DNA from: Micrococcus luteus NCTC 2665
GTDB lineage: Bacteria > Actinomycetota > Actinomycetes > Actinomycetales > Micrococcaceae
NCBI RefSeq assembly: GCF_000023205.1
Contig: NC_012803.1
Location: 2,100,001-2,132,000 of the forward strand
Direction: 5' to 3'
Length of the DNA stretch: 32,000 bases
Of the stretch, positions 16,915-26,270 are shown in pieces. Position 1 is the first letter of the stretch; every line of letters starts with the position of its first letter. The position numbers and the translations under genes were made by a program. The notes under the pieces were generated by a model, which saw only the letters and a list, made by a program, of their open reading frames with translations, made no database searches and was not told the DNA's origin.

Positions 16915-16965
16915 GGTCGTGTTCTCGCTGACGAGGCCGCGATCCGACGCGAGTGTAGGGCGGGC

Positions 16966-18207
16966 TCACGATCGCGCGGCCGCCACCGCCTGGGGCCATC
17001 CGCCGAACCGGGTGGCCACGGTGATGTAGCTGGGCGCTCCATTGGCGGCCTGCCAGGACGTGTAGAGCGTGCTGGAACTCGACCCGGTCTCAGTCAGGAA
17101 ACGCCGCATCCACTCGGTGAGCTGCTCGTCGCTGTACCCGGTGTTCTTCCTGGCGTTGGGCAGTCCCCCGGCGGCGGCCACCAGGTCGCCCCACTGCAGA
17201 CCCGCGCGGCGCTGCAGGGTGGTCGCGCTGGGGCACCGGTGCTCCTTGGCCCACGCCGAGTACCGTCCCGACGACAGCGTCGGCCCGAGGTCTTCGATGG
17301 CCCGCCGCACGACATCGATTGCCGACGCGGCGTCGTCGCCCTCGTCGGTCTTGGCCTTCCACTGCCGCCGCTCGAAGACCCCACCGGTCACCCCAGGGAT
17401 GAGCTCCCGGGTGGCGGCCATGCGCAGAGCCGTGTGGCGGAGGTTCTCGAAGGACACGTCCAGACGGTTGCGGATCAACGCATCCGACGGCATGCCCTCC
17501 CGCTCTTGAAGCCACGCCACGAACTCGAGATGGGTGACGGGGCCGTCCGGTGCCGAGAATGCCTCCACGGCCGCAGCCCACAGATCGTCGGTCGTGTATC
17601 TGGACTCCCGTGGCACCGGTTCCGCCTGACGGATTCCAGCGGCGGCGAGTGCTGCGTTCCACCGACCGAACCGGATGGCGACGGTCTGGTGCCCGGGGAC
17701 TCCCCGAGTCCTGGCCCACGCCGTATAGCCGGCCGCCGTCGTCTGCCCGGTCTCGGCGTGGAATTGCCGCAGGAGGTCGAGCAGTTCCTCCTCCGTGGCT
17801 CGCATCGCCGTGGTCCGGCGCCGCGGGTTGGCGCGGTGCAGGTCCGCGCGCTTGCCGAGCAGCTCAGCAACCTGTTCCTCAGCGACACCGAATTTACGGG
17901 CGGCCACCTCCAGACCCACCCCGCGGTTCGACTCAGACCACGCTCGCAGGCCGGCCCGGAGCAAGCTGCGCTCCTCCTGCGCGACAATCCTCCGGTACTC
18001 CTTCAGCTCCGGGACCGTAACCTCGGACTTCCCGTTGATGATCTGCCGGACCGCCTCGCGGGTGACACCCCATTTCTTCCCGATTGCGTCCAGCGTGGCG
18101 CCGCGGGCATAGTCCACGACCATGCTGGTGGTCCGGTCCACCGGAGCGACGTCGCTCCGTCTCACCAGCCCCTCGATCAGACGGCGGCGTGCGGTCGGGA
18201 GGGTCAC
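16966..18207 (-). CDS. HTH protein with four homing-endonuclease-associated (HNH_repeat-type) repeats, no nuclease domain
   Basis: 413 aa. GTG start overlaps the stop of the upstream DUF262/DUF1524 gene (GTGA). Two HTH-like segments (ATLDAIGKKWGVTREAVRQIINGK and GLEVAARKFGVAEEQVAELLGKR). Four ~60-aa repeats end in Y..WA....P...T....FG.W..A...AG (for example YTAWARTRGVPGHQTVAIRFGRWNAALAAAG and YTSWQAANGAPSYITVATRFGGWPQAVAAA). Confidence 0.7.
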   Translation of the reverse strand: MTLPTARRRLIEGLVRRSDVAPVDRTTSMVVDYARGATLDAIGKKWGVTREAVRQIINGKSEVTVPELKEYRRIVAQEERSLLRAGLRAWSESNRGVGLEVAARKFGVAEEQVAELLGKRADLHRANPRRRTTAMRATEEELLDLLRQFHAETGQTTAAGYTAWARTRGVPGHQTVAIRFGRWNAALAAAGIRQAEPVPRESRYTTDDLWAAAVEAFSAPDGPVTHLEFVAWLQEREGMPSDALIRNRLDVSFENLRHTALRMAATRELIPGVTGGVFERRQWKAKTDEGDDAASAIDVVRRAIEDLGPTLSSGRYSAWAKEHRCPSATTLQRRAGLQWGDLVAAAGGLPNARKNTGYSDEQLTEWMRRFLTETGSSSSTLYTSWQAANGAPSYITVATRFGGWPQAVAAARS

Positions 18208-19976
18208 AGCGCGAACCTCTCGAGGGCGCGTTCCACGAGACGGGCCGTCCGCGCCTCGATGTCAGCCGAGGTCCACGTCTCCTTCTCGGCGAGCTCGGCG
18301 TTCAGCGCGAGTCCGTTCCGGTATCCGATGGCCCGCCCTTGCTGGTCGGTACGGTCTCGCTTCCGCTGGAAGGACTGGTTGCCGAGGGTGGAGTTGAAGC
18401 CGGTGATGGTGAGGTTGCCGAGCGTGTGCACGAACCGGCTCTGGGCCTCCGCCGCCGCCTCCGGTCCGCCCAGCGCGTCCACCCATTCCTGCGGGAGGTT
18501 CTCCCCCTGGGGGAGGATGTGCTCAATCGTCCAGACGAACGTCTTGCCGGACTGCGCCCACAGGTCCACCCGGGTCTCCTTGGTCATCGCGTCTTCGGCC
18601 AGCGCGGCCAGCAGGAAGCGGGTCACATCACGGTTCTCCTCGTACACGGGGCCCTCGAGCCGCTCACGGAAGGTCGCATCGCTGGCCGAGGCGGCCACGA
18701 GTGACCCGCGCACGATGGAGGGCAGCTGATCGGGCTCGCTGCCGGCCACCTCGTCGATCACGTCCATGAACAGGCGCGGCAGCGCGTAGGTCGCCGGGAA
18801 GCCGGTCAGGTTGCGTCGCACGAAGAAGCTGACCAGCAGGCGGGCGACGGCGGCCAGATCCTCTTCACTCCAGCCCGCCTTCTCCTGGCGCACCATCAGC
18901 CACATCATCAGCACGTAGGAGGGAGCAGCCTGGGCACGGCGCAGGGCGGCCAGCTCCCGGTCGAGGCTGGTCGGCGCCTCCACGTCCCCGACGCCCGCGA
19001 TGCGCCCGTACACCTGGGCGGCACGCTCCAAGGAGCGCACAGTCCCCTCGAGGTCCTGGTCCAGGAGGGACTCGTAGATGCGGATGAGGTTCTTCTTGGT
19101 GGCGACGGGCGCCAGCTTGACCGGGGGCAGGTCACCGCGGAAGGCGTTGTAGAAGTGGCGGAGGAACCGTTCATGAGTGGCATAGGAGTCCCCGAGATGG
19201 GCGAGGGTTTCGTTCCACAGCTCGAAGGCCTCCTCGACCTCCATCCCTGCCTTCTGCTCCGCCCCCGCCAGGAAGCTGTTCTTGATCAGGTCCACCGGGG
19301 TCAAGGGGACACCGCGGTTGTTGAGCGACTCGAAGAGCACGAACGCGTCGGCCGCGCTGGAAACCTCGATGTTCACGATCAGCGCGCGCCGGGCGGCGGC
19401 CAGGACGGAAAGCGCCGTCGCGCTCACCGGCTCCCCGCGTTCCTCGGCGAGCTCGGTGATGGCTGCGCGGAAGAACCAGAACGCCTTGGCCACTTTCCGG
19501 GAGGGGTAATACGCCTTCTTCTCGGACTTCACCGGCAGGCCGGCATCCTCGAGCATCGCGTGGTAGTCGGCGCGGTTGGCGCCCTGGACCTGAGGGGTCA
19601 GTCGGGGCGCCTTCTCCTCGTCCCGGACGAGCTCACGGCGCAGCGTCATCACCTCGAAGTGAGCGTCCTCGTCCAAGTCCTCGGCGTCCTTCAGGTGCGA
19701 GTGGACGGCCGCCAGCAGGATGGTCAGGGTGGTCAGGCGCTGCTGGCCGTCGATGACCTCCAGAACGGGGCCACTGAGGGAATCCTTGGTCCGGCTGAGG
19801 GTGATGATGGTCCCCAGGAAGTGCTCGTGGTCCGACTCCACCAGGTCGGCGAAGAGCGACTCCCACTGCGCACGGTGCCAGGAGTATTCGCGCTGGTAAG
19901 GCGGGACGACGTAGTGGGCCTTCATGTGGCTGCTGAACAGCTCATGCACGTGGCGAGCCTTGGCGGAGTTGATCAT
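18204..19976 (-). CDS. GmrSD-like DUF262/DUF1524 protein (putative type IV, modification-dependent, restriction endonuclease)
   Basis: Start at MINSAKARHV (aa 204 of track ORF 18204..20585) with AAGGGA upstream. DUF262 motifs YQREYSW and EVIDGQQRLTTLTILL. C-terminal DUF1524 His-Me finger region WTIEHILPQ ... HTLGNLTITGFNSTLGNQSFQRKRD. Confidence 0.8.
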   Translation of the reverse strand: MINSAKARHVHELFSSHMKAHYVVPPYQREYSWHRAQWESLFADLVESDHEHFLGTIITLSRTKDSLSGPVLEVIDGQQRLTTLTILLAAVHSHLKDAEDLDEDAHFEVMTLRRELVRDEEKAPRLTPQVQGANRADYHAMLEDAGLPVKSEKKAYYPSRKVAKAFWFFRAAITELAEERGEPVSATALSVLAAARRALIVNIEVSSAADAFVLFESLNNRGVPLTPVDLIKNSFLAGAEQKAGMEVEEAFELWNETLAHLGDSYATHERFLRHFYNAFRGDLPPVKLAPVATKKNLIRIYESLLDQDLEGTVRSLERAAQVYGRIAGVGDVEAPTSLDRELAALRRAQAAPSYVLMMWLMVRQEKAGWSEEDLAAVARLLVSFFVRRNLTGFPATYALPRLFMDVIDEVAGSEPDQLPSIVRGSLVAASASDATFRERLEGPVYEENRDVTRFLLAALAEDAMTKETRVDLWAQSGKTFVWTIEHILPQGENLPQEWVDALGGPEAAAEAQSRFVHTLGNLTITGFNSTLGNQSFQRKRDRTDQQGRAIGYRNGLALNAELAEKETWTSADIEARTARLVERALERFAL

Positions 19977-20120
19977 GCTGTGGATCCCTTGTGACGGTGG
20001 CCACGTCAAGCGGGTGCGGTGTCCTCCCTTCCTGGTCAGTCGCCCCTTAGGATCGAGAGGCTGACCACGCCCGGCCGATGCCTCAAGCGGGCGCCGCCCC
20101 CTCACCGGAGAGGAGACCCC

Positions 20121-21057
20121 ATGCCGTTGCCGGATTCCCGCTGGCATGCGGTCTCGCCGTCCCCGTTCGAGCATGAGCAGCAGGGCCTGGACATCCTCCG
20201 CCAGATCCTCCCGGACGAGTCCCCCTTCCACGTGTGGACCAACTTCGAGTTCCCGGACGAGGACGGCCAGTGGCATGAGGTGGACGCGCTCGTCCTGGCA
20301 CGCACTCAGCTGATCCTGCTGGAGCTGAAGTACTACTCCGGCACGCTCACGGGCACGGGCCTGCGCTGGGAACGCCCGGGCCACGCCCCGCAGCGATCCC
20401 CCCTGGCCGGCGCCAAGAAGAAGGCGGAACGGTTCCGGAGCCTCCTGGAGCGCACCCTCAAGGCCGCCGAGCCGGGGGCGGCGCGCCAGCGCATCATCCC
20501 GTACGTGGACTACGCGGTGTTCCTCCACCACCCTCGGTTCCGCAACGCGATGGCGCCGACGGACTCCGGCCGGCGTCGTCCTCACCGGTCGCGCGCAGGA
20601 CGCGCTGGCCGACCACCGCGAAGCCGAGGGGTATACGGCGGCCGCAGATCACACGGTCCTCGCATCGACCGCCGACGACCTCCGCTGGTGGACGTGGGGA
20701 GGCGCGGGGGCCAACGCGCTCCTGGTCGCCGCGCTCGAGCAGGTTGCACCGGAGCTGCTGGGCGAAAAGCTCCGATTCGACAACTTCTCCCTCAGGTTGC
20801 GCGGCGACGTCGATGCGGCATCGCTCGGAAGAGCCCTGCGCCAGGCGACGTCGAATTTCGGAGGTGACCTGGCCGGCGTCGACCCGCTAGTCGATGACGC
20901 CGCGGTACGGGGTCTGAAGTTCCACGAGATGCTGCCCTTGGACCTCGCCCGCGCGACACTGGCGGCGCGGCTGGCCGACCATACTGGCGTCGCTCGGGTG
21001 CTGGAACGCCCCGTCCAGATGTTGCGCACCGCAGAGGACGGAAGGATGTGGGGATGA
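20121..21057 (+). pseudogene. NERD-domain protein with a +1 frame switch near 20570 (frameshifted gene or assembly indel)
   Basis: SD GGAGAGGAG. The N-terminal 150 aa are NERD-like (FEHEQQGLDILRQIL...VWTNFEF...GQWHEVDALVLARTQLILLELKYYSG). After ...APTDSG the frame turns Arg-rich with low GC3. The +1 frame carries high-GC3 protein-like sequence (GVVLTGRAQDAL...LRWWTWGGAGANALLVAALEQV...) to the TGA at 21055-21057, with no start codon of its own before 20797. Confidence 0.6.
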
Positions 21058-21058
21058 G

Positions 21059-21379
21059 ATGAACAAACACGACGAGACCCTGGCCCAGCTGCGCGAGTTC
21101 GTCGCCGAACGTGACTGGGCCCGGTTCCACACCCCGGCCAGCCTCGCCAAGTCCATCAGCATCGAGGCCGCAGAGCTGCTCGAGCACTTCCAGTGGACGG
21201 AGGACGGCGCGGACATGGCTGAGGTGCAGGACGAGCTGGCGGACGTGCTGACCTACGCGTTCATGTTCGCGGACCAGATGGGCTGGGACGTGGATGAGAT
21301 CATCCAGGCCAAGCTGGTGAAGACGCGGGTCAAGCACCCGGTGCCGACAGGCGGGGACGAGGAGGCGACGTCGTCATGA
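21059..21379 (+). CDS. MazG-like nucleotide pyrophosphohydrolase (small all-alpha NTP-PPase)
   Basis: 106 aa. LREFVAERDWARFHTPASLAKSISIEAAELLEHFQW ... DELADVLTYAFMFADQMGWDVDEII.AKL matches the MazG-like / dCTP-pyrophosphatase-like pattern (EF..eR.W..fH.P..La..i..Ea.EL.E.FqW ... E.aDvl.Y). The ATG lies 1 nt after the upstream stop. Confidence 0.8.
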   Translation: MNKHDETLAQLREFVAERDWARFHTPASLAKSISIEAAELLEHFQWTEDGADMAEVQDELADVLTYAFMFADQMGWDVDEIIQAKLVKTRVKHPVPTGGDEEATSS

Positions 21380-23328
21380 CCGACCACAACCCCGGGTACA
21401 CACTGGAACGCCTGCCGTTCAAGGGCGCCCTTCCCCCCGAGCAGGAGAAGAACGCGCGCATGCGGGACTGGCCCGCCGTGTACGTGATCGACAATGAGAA
21501 GCAGGTCTACGTCGGCGAGACGACGAATGTCGTCGCCCGACGAGGACAGCACCACATGGACCCGCGCAAGGCTCGCCTGACGACGATGCGCGTGGTGCTT
21601 CATGACGAGTTCAACAAGTCCGCCGCCCTGGACCTGGAGCGCTACCTCATCCAGATGCTCAGCGGCGACGGCGCCCGCGAGGTCCTGAACCGCAACGCCG
21701 GCATGACGGAGTCGGACTACTACGACCGCACGCGCTACCAGGAGATGTTCGCTGCCATCTTCGAGCGGCTGCGGGCAGAGAAGGTGTTCAGCCGCTCCCG
21801 CGAGCAGATCCTCAACAGCACCCTGTTCAAGCTCTCGCCCTTCAAGGTGCTCACGCCGGAGCAGGAGGCATCGCTGCGGCACATCATCCAGCTGCTCGTC
21901 GCCGATGACGACGTCGATCGCGGCCCGCTCGTCATTCAGGGCGGCCCCGGCACCGGCAAGACGGTGGTGGGCGTGTTCCTGGCGAAACTGCTCGTGGACC
22001 TCGCGAACCTCACGGAGGAGGACGTCGAGGTGGACCTCAGCTCCGACCACGACTTCTTCGACCTGTTCACCCACGCCAACCGGAACGCCCTGCTGCGCAG
22101 CACCGAGGGCCGTGGTCTGCGCATCGGGATCGTCGTACCGCAGCAGTCCCTCCGCCAGTCCCTCAAGCGTGTCTTCCGCCGGACGCCGGGGCTGCACCCG
22201 TCCATGGTGCTGTCCGTGTGGAACGTCGGAGACGCCGAGGAGCGCTACGACATCCTGATCGTTGACGAGGCCCACCGCCTCGGTCTGCGCTCGGCGCAGT
22301 CCAACGGCAGTTTGAACAACAAGTACACGGCCATCAACCAGCGCCTCTTCGGCGACGACGACGTCTCCCACACCCAGCTCGACTGGATCACCCAGCAGGC
22401 CAGGGACGTCGTCCTGCTCGTGGACCCGCGCCAGACGGTGCGTCCGGCCGACCTCGACGCCGCGACGATGGACGCCCTCCTCGCGCGGGCGCACGCCGAA
22501 CACCGTCACCACGCGCTGGTGTCACAGCTCCGCGTCAAGGCGTCCGACTCGTACGTCGACTTCTTCGGCAAGCTCCTCCGGGGCGAGCACCCTCCGGCCC
22601 CGGACCTGGGCGAGTACGACCTGCGCTTGTTCACGGACTTCGGCGCGATGCGCGAGGCGATCCGTGCGCGCGACACCGAGTTCACCCTCGCCCGTCTTGC
22701 CGCCGGGTTTGCTTGGAAGTGGCAGAGCAAGGGCTTCCGCAAGGATCCGTCGAAGCCGGACTGGGACATCGAGCTCGACGGGGTACGGATGCCGTGGAAC
22801 GTCGCCGACACCGACTGGGTCGACTCCCCCGGCTCACTCGACGAGATCGGCTCCATCCACACCCTCCAGGGGTATGACCTCAACTACGCCGGCGTCGTCA
22901 TCGGTCCGGACCTGCAGTGGGACGACACGGCCCAGCGGGTGGTCTTCTCCCGTGCCGACTATGCGGACACGGGCGGCAAGAAGAACAACGGCTACCTCAG
23001 CCGCACCTACTCGGACGAGGACCTGCGCGAGTACGTCATCAACATCTACAACGTGCTCCTGACCCGCGGCGTCCGCGGGACCTACCTGTACGTGGTGGAC
23101 CCCGACCTGCACGAGCAGTTCGCCCGCTGGTTCCCGGGCATCGACGAACCCGACGTGACGTCAGCGCCCTTCGGCGTCCCTCCGGGTGGCCGCCCGGGCG
23201 AGGTCCTGCGCGCCGTCGATGTCGGCTACACGGCGGAGGCCGAGTTCATCGCCTCGACGGACGACCTCGAGCAGGCCCGTCGTCGTGCTGAGGAACTCCG
23301 CCGTTCCCGGAAGCGGACCCGGGAGTGA
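21376..23328 (+). CDS. GIY-YIG-like nuclease domain fused to a DUF2075 (Schlafen-type SF1) helicase/ATPase (COG3410 architecture)
   Basis: 650 aa. ATGA overlap with the MazG-like stop. N-terminus VYVIDNEKQVYVGETTNVVARRGQH...LERYL...NRNAG resembles GIY-YIG. Walker A QGGPGTGKT and Walker B ILIVDEAHRL. C-terminal IHTLQGYDLNYAGVVIG and NVLLTRGVRGTYLYVVD are typical of DUF2075. Confidence 0.8.
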   Translation: MTDHNPGYTLERLPFKGALPPEQEKNARMRDWPAVYVIDNEKQVYVGETTNVVARRGQHHMDPRKARLTTMRVVLHDEFNKSAALDLERYLIQMLSGDGAREVLNRNAGMTESDYYDRTRYQEMFAAIFERLRAEKVFSRSREQILNSTLFKLSPFKVLTPEQEASLRHIIQLLVADDDVDRGPLVIQGGPGTGKTVVGVFLAKLLVDLANLTEEDVEVDLSSDHDFFDLFTHANRNALLRSTEGRGLRIGIVVPQQSLRQSLKRVFRRTPGLHPSMVLSVWNVGDAEERYDILIVDEAHRLGLRSAQSNGSLNNKYTAINQRLFGDDDVSHTQLDWITQQARDVVLLVDPRQTVRPADLDAATMDALLARAHAEHRHHALVSQLRVKASDSYVDFFGKLLRGEHPPAPDLGEYDLRLFTDFGAMREAIRARDTEFTLARLAAGFAWKWQSKGFRKDPSKPDWDIELDGVRMPWNVADTDWVDSPGSLDEIGSIHTLQGYDLNYAGVVIGPDLQWDDTAQRVVFSRADYADTGGKKNNGYLSRTYSDEDLREYVINIYNVLLTRGVRGTYLYVVDPDLHEQFARWFPGIDEPDVTSAPFGVPPGGRPGEVLRAVDVGYTAEAEFIASTDDLEQARRRAEELRRSRKRTRE

Positions 23329-23350
23329 CAGCCCCTACCCTCGGGAATCT

Positions 23351-23409
23351 TCTGCGCACCTGACCCTTCTGACCCGGCCACGGCCGCCGAGAAGGGTCAG
23401 ATGCGCAGA
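23351..23409. terminator. Long hairpin (20-bp stem, 19-nt loop) right after the DUF2075 gene
   Basis: TCTGCGCACCTGACCCTTCT (23351-23370) pairs with AGAAGGGTCAGATGCGCAGA (23390-23409) with one mismatch. It starts 23 nt after the stop at 23328. Confidence 0.45.
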
Positions 23410-23525
23410 CGATCCCTGACACACGGCACCACCGCCCCCCCACGCGGCAAATACACAACACTTGCCTTGCGTATCTCACTGAGGTGTGCCTTACTGGTTC
23501 TCGGACCCCCGCCGGAAGGACCCCC

Positions 23526-24353
23526 ATGGCCCACGCCTCCACGCACCCCGCCCATCCGCTGCCGCCCGTGGCGCCCCGTCGTCTGCTGCTGGCCCAGCGG
23601 CTGCTCCGCGGCGAGGGCTCCGTCGAGGTCACGGCCTTCCGCGCCGGCGAGACGCTCACCACGGCCGTCCACGGCGTGAGCGCGGACGGCCGCCTCGTGG
23701 TCGCCCACGTCCCCAACCTCCTCGGTTCGCTCGGCGCGTTCCACACGCCCGCGCCGCTGGACGTGCGCGTGGACGTCCTGCGCGACGCCCTGGACCTCAC
23801 GGTCCCCACCCGCCTGGCGTCCGTGCATCTGCTCGGCACCCTGCGCTGGTGCCGGGACTCGGCCGAGGTCGCGGAGCTGGGGCTGCGCGGTCGCGTCGCG
23901 GACCTCGTGGCCGACGTCGGCCCGCGGGTGCGCGTGGGCGTCGTCGAGACCCAGCGGATCCTGTTGCACGACGTCGACGGCGTCGCCGTGTTCTGCCGCC
24001 ACACCCTGCCGCTCACGTCGCGCGGACTGGTCGACCAGGCCGAGCTCGCAGACCTGGCGGACGACGTGCTGGGCACCGCCCCCGAGGTGCTCGCGGACCT
24101 GGCCGACGCCGTCGCCCTGGGCCTGCTGCCGGGCGAGAGCACCCCGTTGCAGGTCGGCACCGCACCCCTGTCCGAGTCCCCCGCCCACGCCCTCGACGCG
24201 GACGAAGCCGGGGTGACCCTGCTGCGCGTCCGCGATGGCGAGAGCACCGCGGTGCACGTGGCCCTGCCCGGCGCGGGTCGGCTCGACCACAGCCCGCGGC
24301 ACGCCTGGCGGCGACTGCTGGACGCGATCCCGGCGCGGGTCGCCCGCCCCTGA
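23526..24353 (+). CDS. Hypothetical protein
   Basis: Start MAHASTHP after GGAAGGA (aa 15 of track ORF 23484..24353). High GC3 and ordinary amino-acid composition. There is a vague resemblance to DUF2470/PPOX-like actinobacterial proteins that I cannot substantiate. Confidence 0.5.
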   Translation: MAHASTHPAHPLPPVAPRRLLLAQRLLRGEGSVEVTAFRAGETLTTAVHGVSADGRLVVAHVPNLLGSLGAFHTPAPLDVRVDVLRDALDLTVPTRLASVHLLGTLRWCRDSAEVAELGLRGRVADLVADVGPRVRVGVVETQRILLHDVDGVAVFCRHTLPLTSRGLVDQAELADLADDVLGTAPEVLADLADAVALGLLPGESTPLQVGTAPLSESPAHALDADEAGVTLLRVRDGESTAVHVALPGAGRLDHSPRHAWRRLLDAIPARVARP

Positions 24354-24362
24354 GGGGCGGCG

Positions 24363-24637
24363 TCAGTCGATCGTGTAGGTGGCGCAGGTGGCCACGTCCG
24401 TGACCTCGATGCCCTCGGCGGTGCAGGCGAGGTCGGCGTTGTACGTGCACTCGAGGCGGTGGCACGCACCGACGGTCGAGGTGCCCTCGGTCACCGGGCG
24501 GCGGACGTCCAGCTGGACGAAGGTGCCGCAGCCGGGCGTGCGGTCGGAGCCGGCGACGGTGATGGCCAGGGCGTTGCAGGACGACTGGGCGTTGAAGGCG
24601 CAGGCGCGGCGGCGCAGGTGCGGACGGCGGTGGTCAT
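24363..24637 (-). pseudogene. Small Cys-rich protein (~91 aa, 10 Cys) whose SD-ATG is out of frame with the body
   Basis: GGGAGGAtcacgccATG (ATG at 24637) opens MTTAVRTCAAA. The high-GC3 body (ACAFNAQSSCNALAITVAGSDRTPGCGTFVQLDV...ACHRLECTYNADLACTAEGIEVTDVATCATYTID*) is in another frame. The junction lies in a GCC/GCG run near 24600-24610. The span is 275 nt, not a multiple of 3. Confidence 0.5.
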
Positions 24638-24782
24638 GGCGTGATCCTCCCGGTTCGGGCCCGCCCCGGGATGGGGCGGCGCTGCTGGAATCGAGATTAC
24701 TCCGGCCCGCGAATAGCACAAGAGGGGTGAGCCTTAGTCGATAGACGATTAGCGCAAATGGATTTTGCGCATTGTCGCGTGT

Positions 24783-24790
24783 CCTATGGG
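24783..24790. repeat. Target-site duplication, left copy (CCTATGGG)
   Basis: Identical 8-mer at 26277-26284, immediately outside the other IR. ISL3 elements typically generate 8-bp duplications. Confidence 0.85.
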
Positions 24791-24812
24791 GGCTCTTCCC
24801 AGTTGAGCGTGG
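24791..24812. repeat. IS left inverted repeat (IRL)
   Basis: GGCTCTTCCCAGTTGAGCGTGG; the reverse complement of 26255-26276 is GGCTCTTCACACTTGAGCGTGG. Confidence 0.9.
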
Positions 24813-24896
24813 GGGTGTCGTGAGTCAAGGGCCCGTGCCCTTGCAAGAGGATGGATTTTGCGAAGAATCTAACCTCGATCACGAAGGACACGAGCC

Positions 24897-26270
24897 ATGT
24901 CCCAGCGTACGCGCGCTGCCTTGCCCCTGCCTGCCCACGCCGCTGCCGAGCACCACGTCCGTGCGGCGGCATCGGTGGTGTTCAACCTGGAGGGATACAC
25001 CGTCCTTCAGGCCCTCGACCGGCCACTGGGAGGTAGGCGTGTCGTTGTGGCCGCCGATGCCGCCGAGGGGGCCTGCCCGGGCTGCGGGGTGTTCTCGGGC
25101 CGGGTGCACCAGCGGGTCCGCCAGTCCGTGAAGGACATCCCTGTCGGTGGGGACCTGTTGGAGTTGGTTGTCGTCAAGCCCAGGTTCCTGTGCGCCGAGG
25201 GGGCCTGCCCGCGCCGGACCTTCACGCAGACCACGGACCAGTTGCCGGCCCGGGCCCGGTGTACCACCCGGTTGCGGGAGGCCGTGGTGGCCGCGGTGCT
25301 GGACTCCGGCCGGGCCACCGCGGAAGCCGCCAACGCGCATGGCCTGGCGTGGGGCACCGTCAACGCCGCCATCCTGGGCCACACCATGGTCTTGCCGGAG
25401 GTCGACAAGGTGCCGGTGCGGGCGCTGGGCATCGACGAGCACCGGTTCGCCACCGCCAAGTGGTTCAAACACCCCGACACGGCCGTCTGGTGCCGGGTCG
25501 AGCCGTGGATGAGCACCTTTGTCGTCGCCGACACCGGGCACGTGCTCGGCGTCGTCGACGGACGGTCTTCCCGCAACGTCACCGCCTGGCTGGCCGAACG
25601 CTCCGAAGCCTGGCTGGATCGGCTCGAGGTGGTCGCCATCGATCCCTCGGCCACGTTCCGCACCGCGATCCGCAAGGTGCTGCCGACCGTGGACATCAGC
25701 GTGGACCACTTCCACCTGGTCAAGCTCGGCAACCAGATGCTCACCGAGGTCCGCCAACGCGTGGTGCGCGAAGTCCTGGGCCGGCGGGGCCGCAAGCAGG
25801 ATGCCGTGTGGGCTCACCGGATGTTGCTGCTGCGGGCCGGGGACCGACTCACCGAGGCCGGCCTGCGCCGACTCGAGCACGTCCTGGACGACGATGCCTA
25901 TGAGCAGGTCGCCGCCGCCTGGGCGGTCAAGGAGCACCTGCGGCGGATCCTGAACGCCCCCACCGTCGCAGCGGCCCAGAACGCCCGGATCGACTTCGAG
26001 CTGACCGTAGCCGCCGCAGGACTGCCGGAGGCTGACAGGCTCTCGGCCACCGTGGGGAAGTGGTGGGTCGAGATCAAGGTGTTCATCCGCACCCGAGTCA
26101 CGAACGCCCGCACCGAGGCGGCCAACACGGCCATCAAACAGGTCAAGCGCACCGGCCGCGGGTTCCGCAACCAGACCAACTACCAGTCACGTATTCTGGC
26201 CAGGAGCTTCCGACGGACACGCCGACGCTCCCAGATCCACCCTCGAGCAGGACTCCACGCTCAAGTGTGA
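24897..26270 (+). CDS. ISL3 family transposase
   Basis: 457 aa. N-terminal zinc finger CPGCG...H; LGIDEHRF; VVAIDPSATFRTAI; VDHFHLVKLGNQMLTEVRQRV; C-terminal NARTEAANTAIKQVKRTGRGFRNQTNYQSRIL. Confidence 0.9.
   Translation: MSQRTRAALPLPAHAAAEHHVRAAASVVFNLEGYTVLQALDRPLGGRRVVVAADAAEGACPGCGVFSGRVHQRVRQSVKDIPVGGDLLELVVVKPRFLCAEGACPRRTFTQTTDQLPARARCTTRLREAVVAAVLDSGRATAEAANAHGLAWGTVNAAILGHTMVLPEVDKVPVRALGIDEHRFATAKWFKHPDTAVWCRVEPWMSTFVVADTGHVLGVVDGRSSRNVTAWLAERSEAWLDRLEVVAIDPSATFRTAIRKVLPTVDISVDHFHLVKLGNQMLTEVRQRVVREVLGRRGRKQDAVWAHRMLLLRAGDRLTEAGLRRLEHVLDDDAYEQVAAAWAVKEHLRRILNAPTVAAAQNARIDFELTVAAAGLPEADRLSATVGKWWVEIKVFIRTRVTNARTEAANTAIKQVKRTGRGFRNQTNYQSRILARSFRRTRRRSQIHPRAGLHAQV

What the first reader, a model, noticed from the sequence alone, without database searches (positions are those of the whole stretch)
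16966..19976. GmrSD-like DUF262/DUF1524 enzyme translationally coupled to a nuclease-less HTH plus 4x homing-endonuclease-repeat protein
What the sequence shows:
- The 591-aa DUF262/DUF1524 gene (DGQQRLTT ... EHILPQ ... HTLGNLTI) ends in a GTGA overlap with a 413-aa gene.
- That partner has two HTH-like segments and four ~60-aa repeats of the Y..WA...P...T..RFG.W..A..AG type.
- It contains no HNH or other catalytic motif that I can find.

Established knowledge: GmrSD/BrxU-type enzymes normally work as single polypeptides against modified DNA. The repeat type seen here is normally appended to HNH homing endonucleases, presumably as a DNA-binding module.

Inference: the partner may be a detached DNA-recognition or regulatory subunit that targets or restrains the nuclease, giving a two-component variant of a type IV restriction enzyme.
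Basis: partly seen in the sequence, partly recalled or inferred. Interest (0 to 1): 0.65.

Follow-up and report, generated by a model that had tools for sequence, protein, structure and literature searches.

The report
GmrSD nuclease with sigma-like HTH companion
An ordinary single-chain GmrSD-type anti-phage nuclease is co-transcribed with a member of an uncharacterised, nuclease-free DNA-binding protein family that turns up beside many different defence systems, so it looks like a defence-island accessory (probably a regulator) rather than a dedicated second subunit of the nuclease.

Summary
On the minus strand, a 590-aa GmrSD_N/GmrSD_C enzyme (18204-19976) ends in a GTGA overlap with a 413-aa protein (16966-18207). 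That partner has a sigma-70 region-4.2-like HTH, a second HTH and four PF18780 "HNH_repeat" units (three clear, one degenerate). It has no nuclease: none of 45 family members has a nuclease domain, and the AlphaFold model is all-alpha.

The "two-component type IV enzyme" reading is only partly supported.
- The GmrSD matches, end to end, the models of HEC-06, a validated single-gene defence.
- The GmrSD has thousands of actinobacterial relatives. The partner family has only about 50-70 clusters.
- Partner homologues sit beside GmrSD in two lineages, in opposite gene orders.
- They also sit beside McrBC-like genes, an Mrr/SNF2 methylase operon, SoFic, Azaca ZacA and an HTH-M78 protein. In four loci no defence neighbour was found.

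In a 98.8%-identical relative, the pair flanks an intact Pgl/BREX type 2 system. In the window only 151 codons of pglW remain.

Most likely the GmrSD is autonomous, and the partner is an undescribed DNA-binding defence-island accessory, probably a regulator. This is a new variant of a known kind, of moderate interest.

The parts
18204..19976 (-). GmrSD-family (DUF262/DUF1524) type IV restriction-like enzyme, 590 aa, HEC-06/'Orf5' type
   Evidence: Pfam GmrSD_N 1.3e-35 and GmrSD_C 9.4e-19. PADLOC Orf5 2.4e-74 and HEC-06 1.3e-70, both full length. DGQQR and EHILPQ/HTLGN motifs are present in the translation. At least 2803 relatives.
16966..18207 (-). 413-aa nuclease-free partner: sigma-4.2-like HTH, second HTH and four PF18780 repeats
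   Evidence: HNH_repeat 1.8e-17. Family of about 47 full-length cluster representatives. No nuclease domain in 45 of 45 members. AlphaFold model pLDDT 92.8, all-alpha. pN/pS 0.30 against L010.
18204..18207 (-). GTGA stop/start overlap (likely translational coupling); GAGAGG Shine-Dalgarno-like hexamer 8 nt upstream
   Evidence: Read directly from the sequence. The GTG start is supported by N-terminal residues conserved in P0002 and P0003.
18034..18102 (-). HTH1 (aa 36-58), a near copy of region 4.2 of actinobacterial principal sigma factors
   Evidence: The family profile hits SigA/RpoD/HrdB region 4 chains. hhalign gives 96% probability and 57% identity over 23 aa against the M. tuberculosis SigA region 4.2 sequence. 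Sigma70_r4 in 39 of 45 members.
17839..17919 (-). HTH2 (aa 97-123), ending at the family-invariant His124
   Evidence: Helices 99-106 and 110-123 in the model. Conserved L..AA..LG....V...LGRR..RH pattern, with H124 invariant in 45 sequences.
17629..17799 (-). HNH_repeat R1 (aa 137-193)
   Evidence: Pfam match at aa 138-192. R1 against R4 z=21 and against R3 z=11. Single-repeat model has four helices, pLDDT 90.
17419..17598 (-). Degenerate repeat R2 (aa 204-263)
   Evidence: Weakly similar to R1 only (z=4.3). Same helical pattern in the model.
17161..17337 (-). HNH_repeat R3 (aa 291-349)
   Evidence: z=11 to R1 and z=7.3 to R4.
16969..17139 (-). HNH_repeat R4 (aa 357-413)
   Evidence: z=21 to R1.
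19977..20120 (.). Divergent intergenic region between GmrSD and the pglW remnant; contains two CCCGCTTGA(G/C)G direct repeats 77 nt apart (-35-like TTGA on the GmrSD strand)
   Evidence: Direct repeat family D1. The region is conserved in L010, with 5 differences in 144 nt. No function was tested.
20121..20572 (+). 5' remnant (about 151 codons, NERD domain) of pglW, the kinase of a Pgl/BREX type 2 system
   Evidence: PADLOC PglW 2.1e-45 and Pfam NERD. tblastn of the L010 PglW matches aa 1-163 only. DNA homology to L010 ends at 20572.
16953..20572 (.). 3.6-kb conserved cassette (partner, GmrSD, intergenic region, pglW 5' end), 98.8% identical to L010-L013 where those contigs cover it, with unrelated flanks
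   Evidence: blastn. Breakpoint sequences were inspected.

Best explanation
The locus is a small defence operon inside a low-GC island.

Shown:
- The first gene encodes a complete single-chain GmrSD-family enzyme of the HEC-06 type, with all NTPase (DGQQR) and His-Me nuclease motifs.
- The second gene encodes an all-helical, nuclease-free protein built from DNA-binding-type modules. These are an HTH almost identical to region 4.2 of the housekeeping sigma factor, a second HTH, and four PF18780 four-helix repeats.
- This protein belongs to a distinct, conserved family. Its members lie next to many unrelated defence effectors, usually on the same strand and closely spaced.

Inferred:
- The GmrSD works on its own as a modification-dependent nuclease, as BrxU and HEC-06 do.
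- The partner is a defence-island accessory that binds DNA. Most probably it is a transcription regulator of the adjacent effector operon, comparable in role (not in fold) to BrxR/CapW-type regulators or R-M controller proteins.
- The sigma-4.2-like recognition helix (TRE[RA]VRQI) probably contacts -35-like TTGAC sites. The repeat array may extend the DNA footprint or act as a sensor or interaction module.
- The GTGA overlap sets its synthesis in proportion to the nuclease.
For: - GmrSD domains and motifs, and full-length matches to HEC-06/Orf5 models.
- HEC-06 is active as a single gene and depends on its DGQQR and EH motifs (bioRxiv 10.1101/2024.01.29.577857).
- Partner family: about 47 full-length cluster representatives. 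HNH_repeat in 45 of 45 and Sigma70_r4 in 39 of 45, with no nuclease. All-alpha model at pLDDT 92.8.
- HTH1 resembles SigA region 4.2.
- Seven of eleven informative contexts have known or candidate defence genes immediately adjacent:
  - GmrSD, twice
  - McrB/McrC-like
  - C5-MTase, HATPase and Mrr/SNF2 operon
  - SoFic
  - ZacA
  - Hhe/PDC-S37, DEDDh and HTH-M78
- The partner is the upstream gene in four of these contexts (L002, L016, L039, L007). Spacings are tight: a 17-nt overlap in L007, abutting genes in L037, 78 nt in L002 and 108 nt in L016.
- The pair survives as a unit where the neighbouring Pgl system was lost.
- pN/pS is 0.30 for the partner.
- The GmrSD family vastly outnumbers the partner family.
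Against: - No binding site, regulon or interaction was tested. No operator-like k-mer is shared among upstream regions of 12 loci.
- A 413-aa, six-module protein is large for a simple repressor.
- In the window it lies downstream of, and is translationally coupled to, the nuclease. That arrangement is more typical of a subunit or antitoxin than of a regulator.
- Four family members have no identifiable defence neighbour.
- Structure searches gave no significant match for the repeat. The best were TetR-type HTH domains at TM about 0.56-0.6 with E>1, so DNA binding by the repeats is unproven.
- Only 11 contexts were sampled, and several come from related Brachybacterium-like lineages.
Confidence: 0.45

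Rival explanations
1. Two-component type IV enzyme. The partner binds the GmrSD physically. It acts either as a detached DNA-recognition subunit that directs the nuclease to particular DNA, or as an inhibitor (immunity protein) that restrains it until infection.
For: - A 4-nt overlap with a Shine-Dalgarno-like site, implying coupled synthesis.
- The pair is inherited as a unit with different flanks.
- A second, diverged partner/GmrSD pair exists (39% and 29% identity) in the reverse order.
- Further neighbours are type IV-like nucleases: McrBC-like and Mrr/SNF2.
Against: - HEC-06-type GmrSDs defend alone.
- More than 100 GmrSD orthologue clusters at 57-60% identity compare with two partner clusters at that distance, and one of those two (P0002) is not next to a GmrSD.
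- The partner also accompanies non-nuclease effectors (SoFic, Azaca, M78) and occurs where no defence neighbour was found.
- No GmrSD/HNH_repeat fusion appeared among the families listed for 116 relatives or in the domain lists of the 120 best GmrSD hits.
Confidence: 0.2
2. Independent defence or anti-mobile-element protein. The partner is a self-contained DNA-binding factor, for example one that occludes or silences -35-like promoter sites on incoming DNA. It shares an operon with the GmrSD only because defence genes cluster.
For: - Variable neighbours, and occurrence without any identified defence neighbour.
- Tandem paralogues in a phage-like region.
- A housekeeping-sigma-like recognition helix.
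Against: - No effector or enzymatic domain.
- The tight same-strand coupling to diverse effectors in five loci is more than loose island clustering.
Confidence: 0.2
3. Decayed homing endonuclease. The partner is the DNA-binding remnant of an HNH homing endonuclease that inserted next to the GmrSD and lost its nuclease.
For: The Pfam name of PF18780. A weak structural hit to a phage protein annotated 'Endonuclease'.
Against: - The same full-length nuclease-free architecture is conserved in about 47 clusters at 27-60% identity, with invariant residues.
- pN/pS is 0.30.
- The ORF is intact.
- There are no close phage or plasmid relatives.
Confidence: 0.05

Closest known systems
HEC-06 (PADLOC) GmrSD-like single-gene defence; more broadly GmrSD, BrxU and SspE type IV enzymes
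   Same: DUF262 (DGQQR) plus DUF1524 (EH...N His-Me finger) in one roughly 590-aa chain. End-to-end match to HEC-06 models at 1e-70. In the near-identical relative L010 it lies beside a BREX type 2/Pgl system, as BrxU lies within a BREX island (PMC8565348 listed).
   Different: It is followed by a translationally coupled HTH/HNH_repeat gene. Sequence matches to solved SspE and DUF262 structures cover little more than the N-terminal domain. In the window the Pgl system is reduced to a pglW stub.
BrxR/CapW-type regulators of defence islands, and controller (C) proteins of restriction-modification systems
   Same: HTH proteins encoded next to many unrelated defence systems, on the same strand and often first in the operon. 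This describes what the partner may work like; it is an inference from gene context and my own knowledge of those families.
   Different: No WYL/WCX domain and no Xre-type C-protein fold. Instead it has a sigma-4.2-like HTH, a second HTH and four PF18780 repeats. It is much larger. In the window it is downstream of the nuclease.
PF18780 'homing endonuclease associated repeat' proteins
   Same: Carries three clear repeat units and one degenerate unit. NCBI names relatives 'homing endonuclease associated repeat-containing protein' or 'sigma factor-like helix-turn-helix DNA-binding protein'.
   Different: No HNH or other nuclease in this protein, in the 45 full-length relatives, or among the common co-domains of 71 more distant ones.
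Region 4.2 of principal sigma factors (SigA/HrdB/RpoD)
   Same: The family consensus TLxEIGxxxGVTRERVRQI matches M. tuberculosis SigA [20 protein letters not shown].
   Different: Only this one HTH is shared. The window protein, P0004 and nearly all relatives have no region 2 or 3, and no NCBIfam sigma model is passed. It is not a sigma factor.

Membership tests
GmrSD family (type IV restriction, DUF262/DUF1524) | N-terminal DUF262 domain with the DGQQR nucleotide-hydrolysis motif | tested here: met
   GmrSD_N 1.3e-35 at aa 11-235. VIDGQQRLTT is present in the translation.
GmrSD family (type IV restriction, DUF262/DUF1524) | C-terminal DUF1524 His-Me finger nuclease motif ((D/E)H ... N) | tested here: met
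   GmrSD_C 9.4e-19 at aa 432-582. EHILPQ and HTLGNLT are present. The corresponding EH motif is essential in HEC-06.
GmrSD family (type IV restriction, DUF262/DUF1524) | Both domains in one polypeptide, joined by a helical linker | tested here: met
   590 aa. Aligns at residues 9-585 to positions 11-555 of the 562-position HEC-06 model.
GmrSD family (type IV restriction, DUF262/DUF1524) | Cleavage that depends on modified DNA, and phage restriction | not testable with these tools
   Needs enzymology or plaque assays.
BrxU (BREX-embedded GmrSD) | Located in or next to a BREX/Pgl system | tested here: inconclusive
   The 98.8%-identical relative L010 lies divergent to pglW, pglX and pglY. In the window only a 151-codon pglW stub remains. 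No BrxU model appeared among the 25 best PADLOC hits of 35.
HNH homing endonuclease | A catalytic HNH/His-Me (or other nuclease) domain | tested here: not met
   No nuclease Pfam hit in the partner or in 45 relatives. The model has no beta strands.
PF18780 HNH_repeat-containing proteins | One or more PF18780 repeat units above the gathering score | tested here: met
   63.8 bits against a cut-off of 26. Repeat statistics.
Sigma-70 family sigma factors | Region 2 (core binding and -10 recognition) together with region 4 | tested here: not met
   Only a region-4.2-like HTH is present. No NCBIfam sigma model passes its cut-off: best 16.5 bits for the window protein and 26.6 bits against a cut-off of 42.9 for P0004. 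No Sigma70_r2 in the family.
BrxR/CapW WYL-type defence regulators | wHTH plus WYL ligand-sensing domain | tested here: not met
   No WYL domain in the Pfam scans. The resemblance is in gene context only.

The most novel reading that the evidence does not exclude
The partner may be a mimic of region 4 of the housekeeping sigma factor that works as an infection sensor or decoy. Actinophages encode WhiB-like proteins, and Wbl proteins bind SigA region 4 (PMC6954389, PMC13013590). A free-standing copy of the SigA 4.2 HTH could capture such phage factors, or occupy -35 elements on phage DNA. It could thereby license or release the adjacent effector, whether GmrSD, McrBC, SoFic, Azaca or another. 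That would explain why one companion serves many unrelated effectors.

Nothing here tests this. The H516/P517 WhiB1-contact motif of SigA has no aligned counterpart after HTH1 (one search covers only the HTH). An invariant His124 follows HTH2.
Probability: 0.07. Interest if true: 0.85.

Novelty: new variant of a known kind. Interest (0 to 1): 0.45.

Why it matters
- The GmrSD itself is routine.
- The companion is not. It belongs to a conserved, uncharacterised actinobacterial family on which I found no functional literature. The only paper mentioning PF18780 is a structure-modelling survey.
- The family combines a near copy of the housekeeping sigma factor's -35-reading helix with repeats so far known only by a homing-endonuclease label. 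It sits beside at least six different kinds of defence system.
- If it is a regulator or sensor, it would be a new BrxR-like hub for defence islands in high-GC Gram-positive bacteria.
- It would also give PF18780 a function outside homing endonucleases.
- The locus also records a Pgl/BREX type 2 system being replaced while its GmrSD side-arm was kept.

Tried and rejected
- **Word-index searches for partner homologues** found only 4-6 clusters. The second, with the 45-sequence profile, was saturated by common words and added little.
- **Genome and metagenome scans** were swamped by sigma-factor HTH patterns. They gave two Brachybacterium loci and two short contigs. One search failed for lack of conserved columns.
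- **Viral-contig scan** returned mostly bare HTH matches. The phage and plasmid tblastn searches found only single-repeat-length hits, so the family is not obviously phage- or plasmid-borne.
- **Shared operator among upstream regions of 12 loci**: nothing beyond chance.
- **Promoter consensus scan**: none found.
- **Foldseek** of the full model against PDB and BFVD, and of a single repeat against PDB: no significant match, only weak HTH-type similarities.
- **Context of GmrSD orthologues**: the plasmid search gave two distant hits and the viral scan none. Absence of the partner next to orthologues therefore rests on family-size counts, not direct inspection.
- **Cryptic nuclease** was rejected on domain scans and the all-alpha fold.
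- **True sigma factor** was rejected because region 2 is absent.
- **A fused-chain AlphaFold run** as a substitute for a multimer was not attempted. With only three paired sequences it would not be informative.
Full report
**1. What is there**

Window 16966-19976 carries two minus-strand genes.

The upstream gene (18204-19976, 590 aa) has Pfam GmrSD_N (1.3e-35) and GmrSD_C (9.4e-19). It shows the DGQQR, EHILPQ and HTLGN motifs. It matches the PADLOC models 'Orf5' (2.4e-74) and HEC-06 (1.3e-70) end to end.

Its TGA overlaps the GTG of a 413-aa gene (16966-18207) in the sequence CTGTGACC. A GAGAGG hexamer lies 8 nt upstream. The GTG start is real: the residues between it and the first internal Met (MT..ARRR.IE) are conserved in homologues at 56-59% identity.

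**2. Anatomy of the partner**

- Pfam finds PF18780 HNH_repeat (1.8e-17) and sub-threshold HTH matches at aa 29-58.
- Self-comparison shows three clearly related repeats (R1 137-193, R3 291-349, R4 357-413; z of 7-21 against shuffles). A fourth unit, R2 (204-263), is degenerate.
- AlphaFold2 on a 45-sequence family alignment gives pLDDT 92.8. The chain has 26 helices and no beta strands. This rules out HNH, GIY-YIG, PD-(D/E)xK and LAGLIDADG catalytic folds.
- Each repeat is a four-helix unit.
- HTH1 is strikingly close to region 4.2 of actinobacterial principal sigma factors. The family consensus is TLxEIGxxxGVTRERVRQI; M. tuberculosis SigA has [20 protein letters not shown]. The profile hits SigA, HrdB and RpoD chains in the PDB, and hhalign gives 96% probability.
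- It is not a sigma factor. Region 2 is missing and no NCBIfam sigma model is passed.
- Foldseek found nothing significant for the whole protein or for one repeat. The best were TetR-type HTH domains at TM about 0.56-0.6 with E>1.

**3. The family**

An exhaustive HMMER search of 1.84 billion representatives gave 3804 hits at E<=1e-3 and 69 at E<=1e-30. About 47 of these cover the whole architecture and are 403-975 aa long.

Of 45 such members, all 45 have HNH_repeat and 39 have Sigma70_r4. None has a nuclease domain.

Among 71 more distant hits, the 25 most common co-domains are all HTH types.

NCBI calls members 'homing endonuclease associated repeat-containing protein' or 'sigma factor-like helix-turn-helix DNA-binding protein', in Brachybacterium and Schaalia.

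I found no functional literature.

**4. Is the partner tied to GmrSD?**

| Locus or protein | Neighbours of the partner homologue |
|---|---|
| Window, and P0001 at 98% identity | GmrSD then partner, 4-nt overlap |
| P0004 (39% identity) | Partner, then 78 nt, then an 857-aa GmrSD carrying an extra MGMT-like DNA_binding_1 domain. The two GmrSDs are 29% identical |
| P0016 | Partner, then McrB-like AAA_5 and McrC |
| P0008 | C5-methylase, HATPase, Mrr_cat/SNF2 helicase (PADLOC mREase_IV 2e-34), a 202-aa ORF, then partner; Vsr follows on the opposite strand |
| P0005 | Divergent AAA_23 ATPase; partner, then Fic (PADLOC SoFic 1e-60) |
| P0002 (59% identity) | Divergent DUF6361 (PADLOC ZacA of Azaca, 6e-106) |
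| Brachybacterium phenoliresistens L007 | PDC-S37/Hhe-like helicase-nuclease, an unknown ORF and a DEDDh-BRCT exonuclease upstream; partner overlaps an HTH-Peptidase_M78 gene |
| B. hainanense L006 | PTS genes, CPBP protease, chaperone-like protein, HAD hydrolase |
| L038 | No defence neighbour identified |
| Schaalia L040 | No defence neighbour identified |
| L014 | Phage-like region with a tandem paralogue |

So 7 of 11 contexts have defence genes adjacent. Four of these are type IV-like nucleases, but only two are GmrSD.

Under an assumed 10% background, 7 of 11 would have a probability of about 2e-5. That background is my assumption and was not measured. Some of the loci also come from related lineages.

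Seen from the other side, the GmrSD has at least 2803 relatives (clusters at 90% identity, E<=1e-30). More than 100 are at 57-60% identity, in Georgenia, Janibacter, Micrococcus, Arthrobacter, Gordonia, Corynebacterium and others. At that distance the partner has two clusters. Most orthologous GmrSDs therefore probably lack it.

**5. Local history**

blastn shows that window 16953-20572 is 98.8% identical to metagenomic contigs L010-L013 where those contigs cover it. The flanks on both sides are unrelated.

In L010 and L011 the pair lies divergent to an intact pglW (1436 aa), pglX and pglY. This is a Pgl/BREX type 2 system.

In the window only the first 151 or so codons of pglW survive (20121-20572). 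They are followed by:
- a MazG-like gene;
- a GIY-YIG/Schlafen-helicase gene;
- an unknown ORF;
- an ISL3 transposase.

All of this lies within a lower-GC stretch (roughly 17000-23500) between housekeeping genes.

Between the window and L010, pN/pS is 0.30 for the partner (21 differences) and 0.50 for the GmrSD (10 differences). Both genes are intact and the partner looks constrained, although the counts are small.

**6. Interpretation**

The GmrSD is an ordinary member of a validated single-gene defence type. HEC-06 needs only its own DGQQR and EH motifs (bioRxiv 10.1101/2024.01.29.577857). BrxU is the BREX-associated precedent (PMC8565348, listed).

The partner is best read as a defence-island accessory that binds DNA. 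It is most likely a regulator of the adjacent effector operon. Its role would be analogous to BrxR/CapW or R-M C-proteins, but its architecture is different and undescribed (confidence 0.45).

So does an independent DNA-binding defence protein (0.2). A decayed homing endonuclease is unlikely (0.05).

A speculative but attractive reading is a SigA region-4 mimic that senses phage factors targeting sigma, such as WhiB-like proteins (PMC6954389 and PMC13013590). I put this at 0.07.

**7. Verdict**

- Novelty: a new variant of a known kind. The nuclease is known; its companion belongs to an uncharacterised family.
- Interest: 0.45.

Noticed in passing
window 20121-20603 (+): A truncated pglW: NERD domain only, about 151-163 of 1436 codons. 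DNA homology to the intact Pgl/BREX type 2 locus in L010 stops at 20572, and no pglX, pglY or pglZ remains in the window. This looks like replacement of a Pgl system by other cargo.
   Followed up: yes
window 21059-23328 (+): A MazG-like pyrophosphohydrolase (106 aa) overlaps by ATGA a 650-aa protein with a weak GIY-YIG match and a Schlafen group 3/DUF2075 helicase domain (1.9e-66). This may be a two-gene defence candidate; PADLOC gave only weak hits (PDC-S41, PDC-S14).
   Followed up: partly
window 23484-26270: An unknown 289-aa ORF with no Pfam hit is followed by an ISL3-family transposase (24897-26270). Together with the lower GC content (0.65-0.70 against 0.74-0.78) from roughly 17000 to 23500, this marks a mobile defence island between ECH/LysM genes and a PhoD phosphatase gene.
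   Followed up: partly
window 20006-20026 and 20083-20103: Two copies of TCAAGCGGG (CCCGCTTGA on the GmrSD strand, containing a -35-like TTGA) lie 77 nt apart in the GmrSD/pglW intergenic region. They could be promoters or binding sites for the sigma-4.2-like HTH. This was not tested.
   Followed up: no
window 24183-24277 (-): ARAGORN calls a 95-nt tRNA-Glu(ctc) inside the unknown ORF. The length is unusual and this is probably a false positive. It was not checked with Rfam.
   Followed up: no
L002 1953-4526: The GmrSD next to the P0004 partner homologue carries an extra C-terminal DNA_binding_1 (MGMT/alkyltransferase-like) domain. This fusion hints at sensing of alkylated or modified bases.
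   Followed up: no
L006 and L007 (Brachybacterium hainanense and B. phenoliresistens): The partner homologue sits at what looks like the same chromosomal site in both species, upstream of an H+-pyrophosphatase gene. The genes immediately around it differ: defence genes in L007, and CPBP, chaperone-like and HAD genes in L006. The site looks like a variable hotspot.
   Followed up: partly
L014 8001-10858: Two tandem paralogues of the partner family (429 and 468 aa) lie in a region with a GH25 lysin, a PG_binding_1 protein and many ORFs of unknown function. This may be a prophage.
   Followed up: no
partner protein residues S91, H124, D208, R281, W90/164/183/283/319 (window 16966-18207): These residues are invariant across 45 family members that are only 27-60% identical. 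The polar ones (Ser, His, Asp, Arg) are unexplained for a purely DNA-binding helical protein.
   Followed up: no
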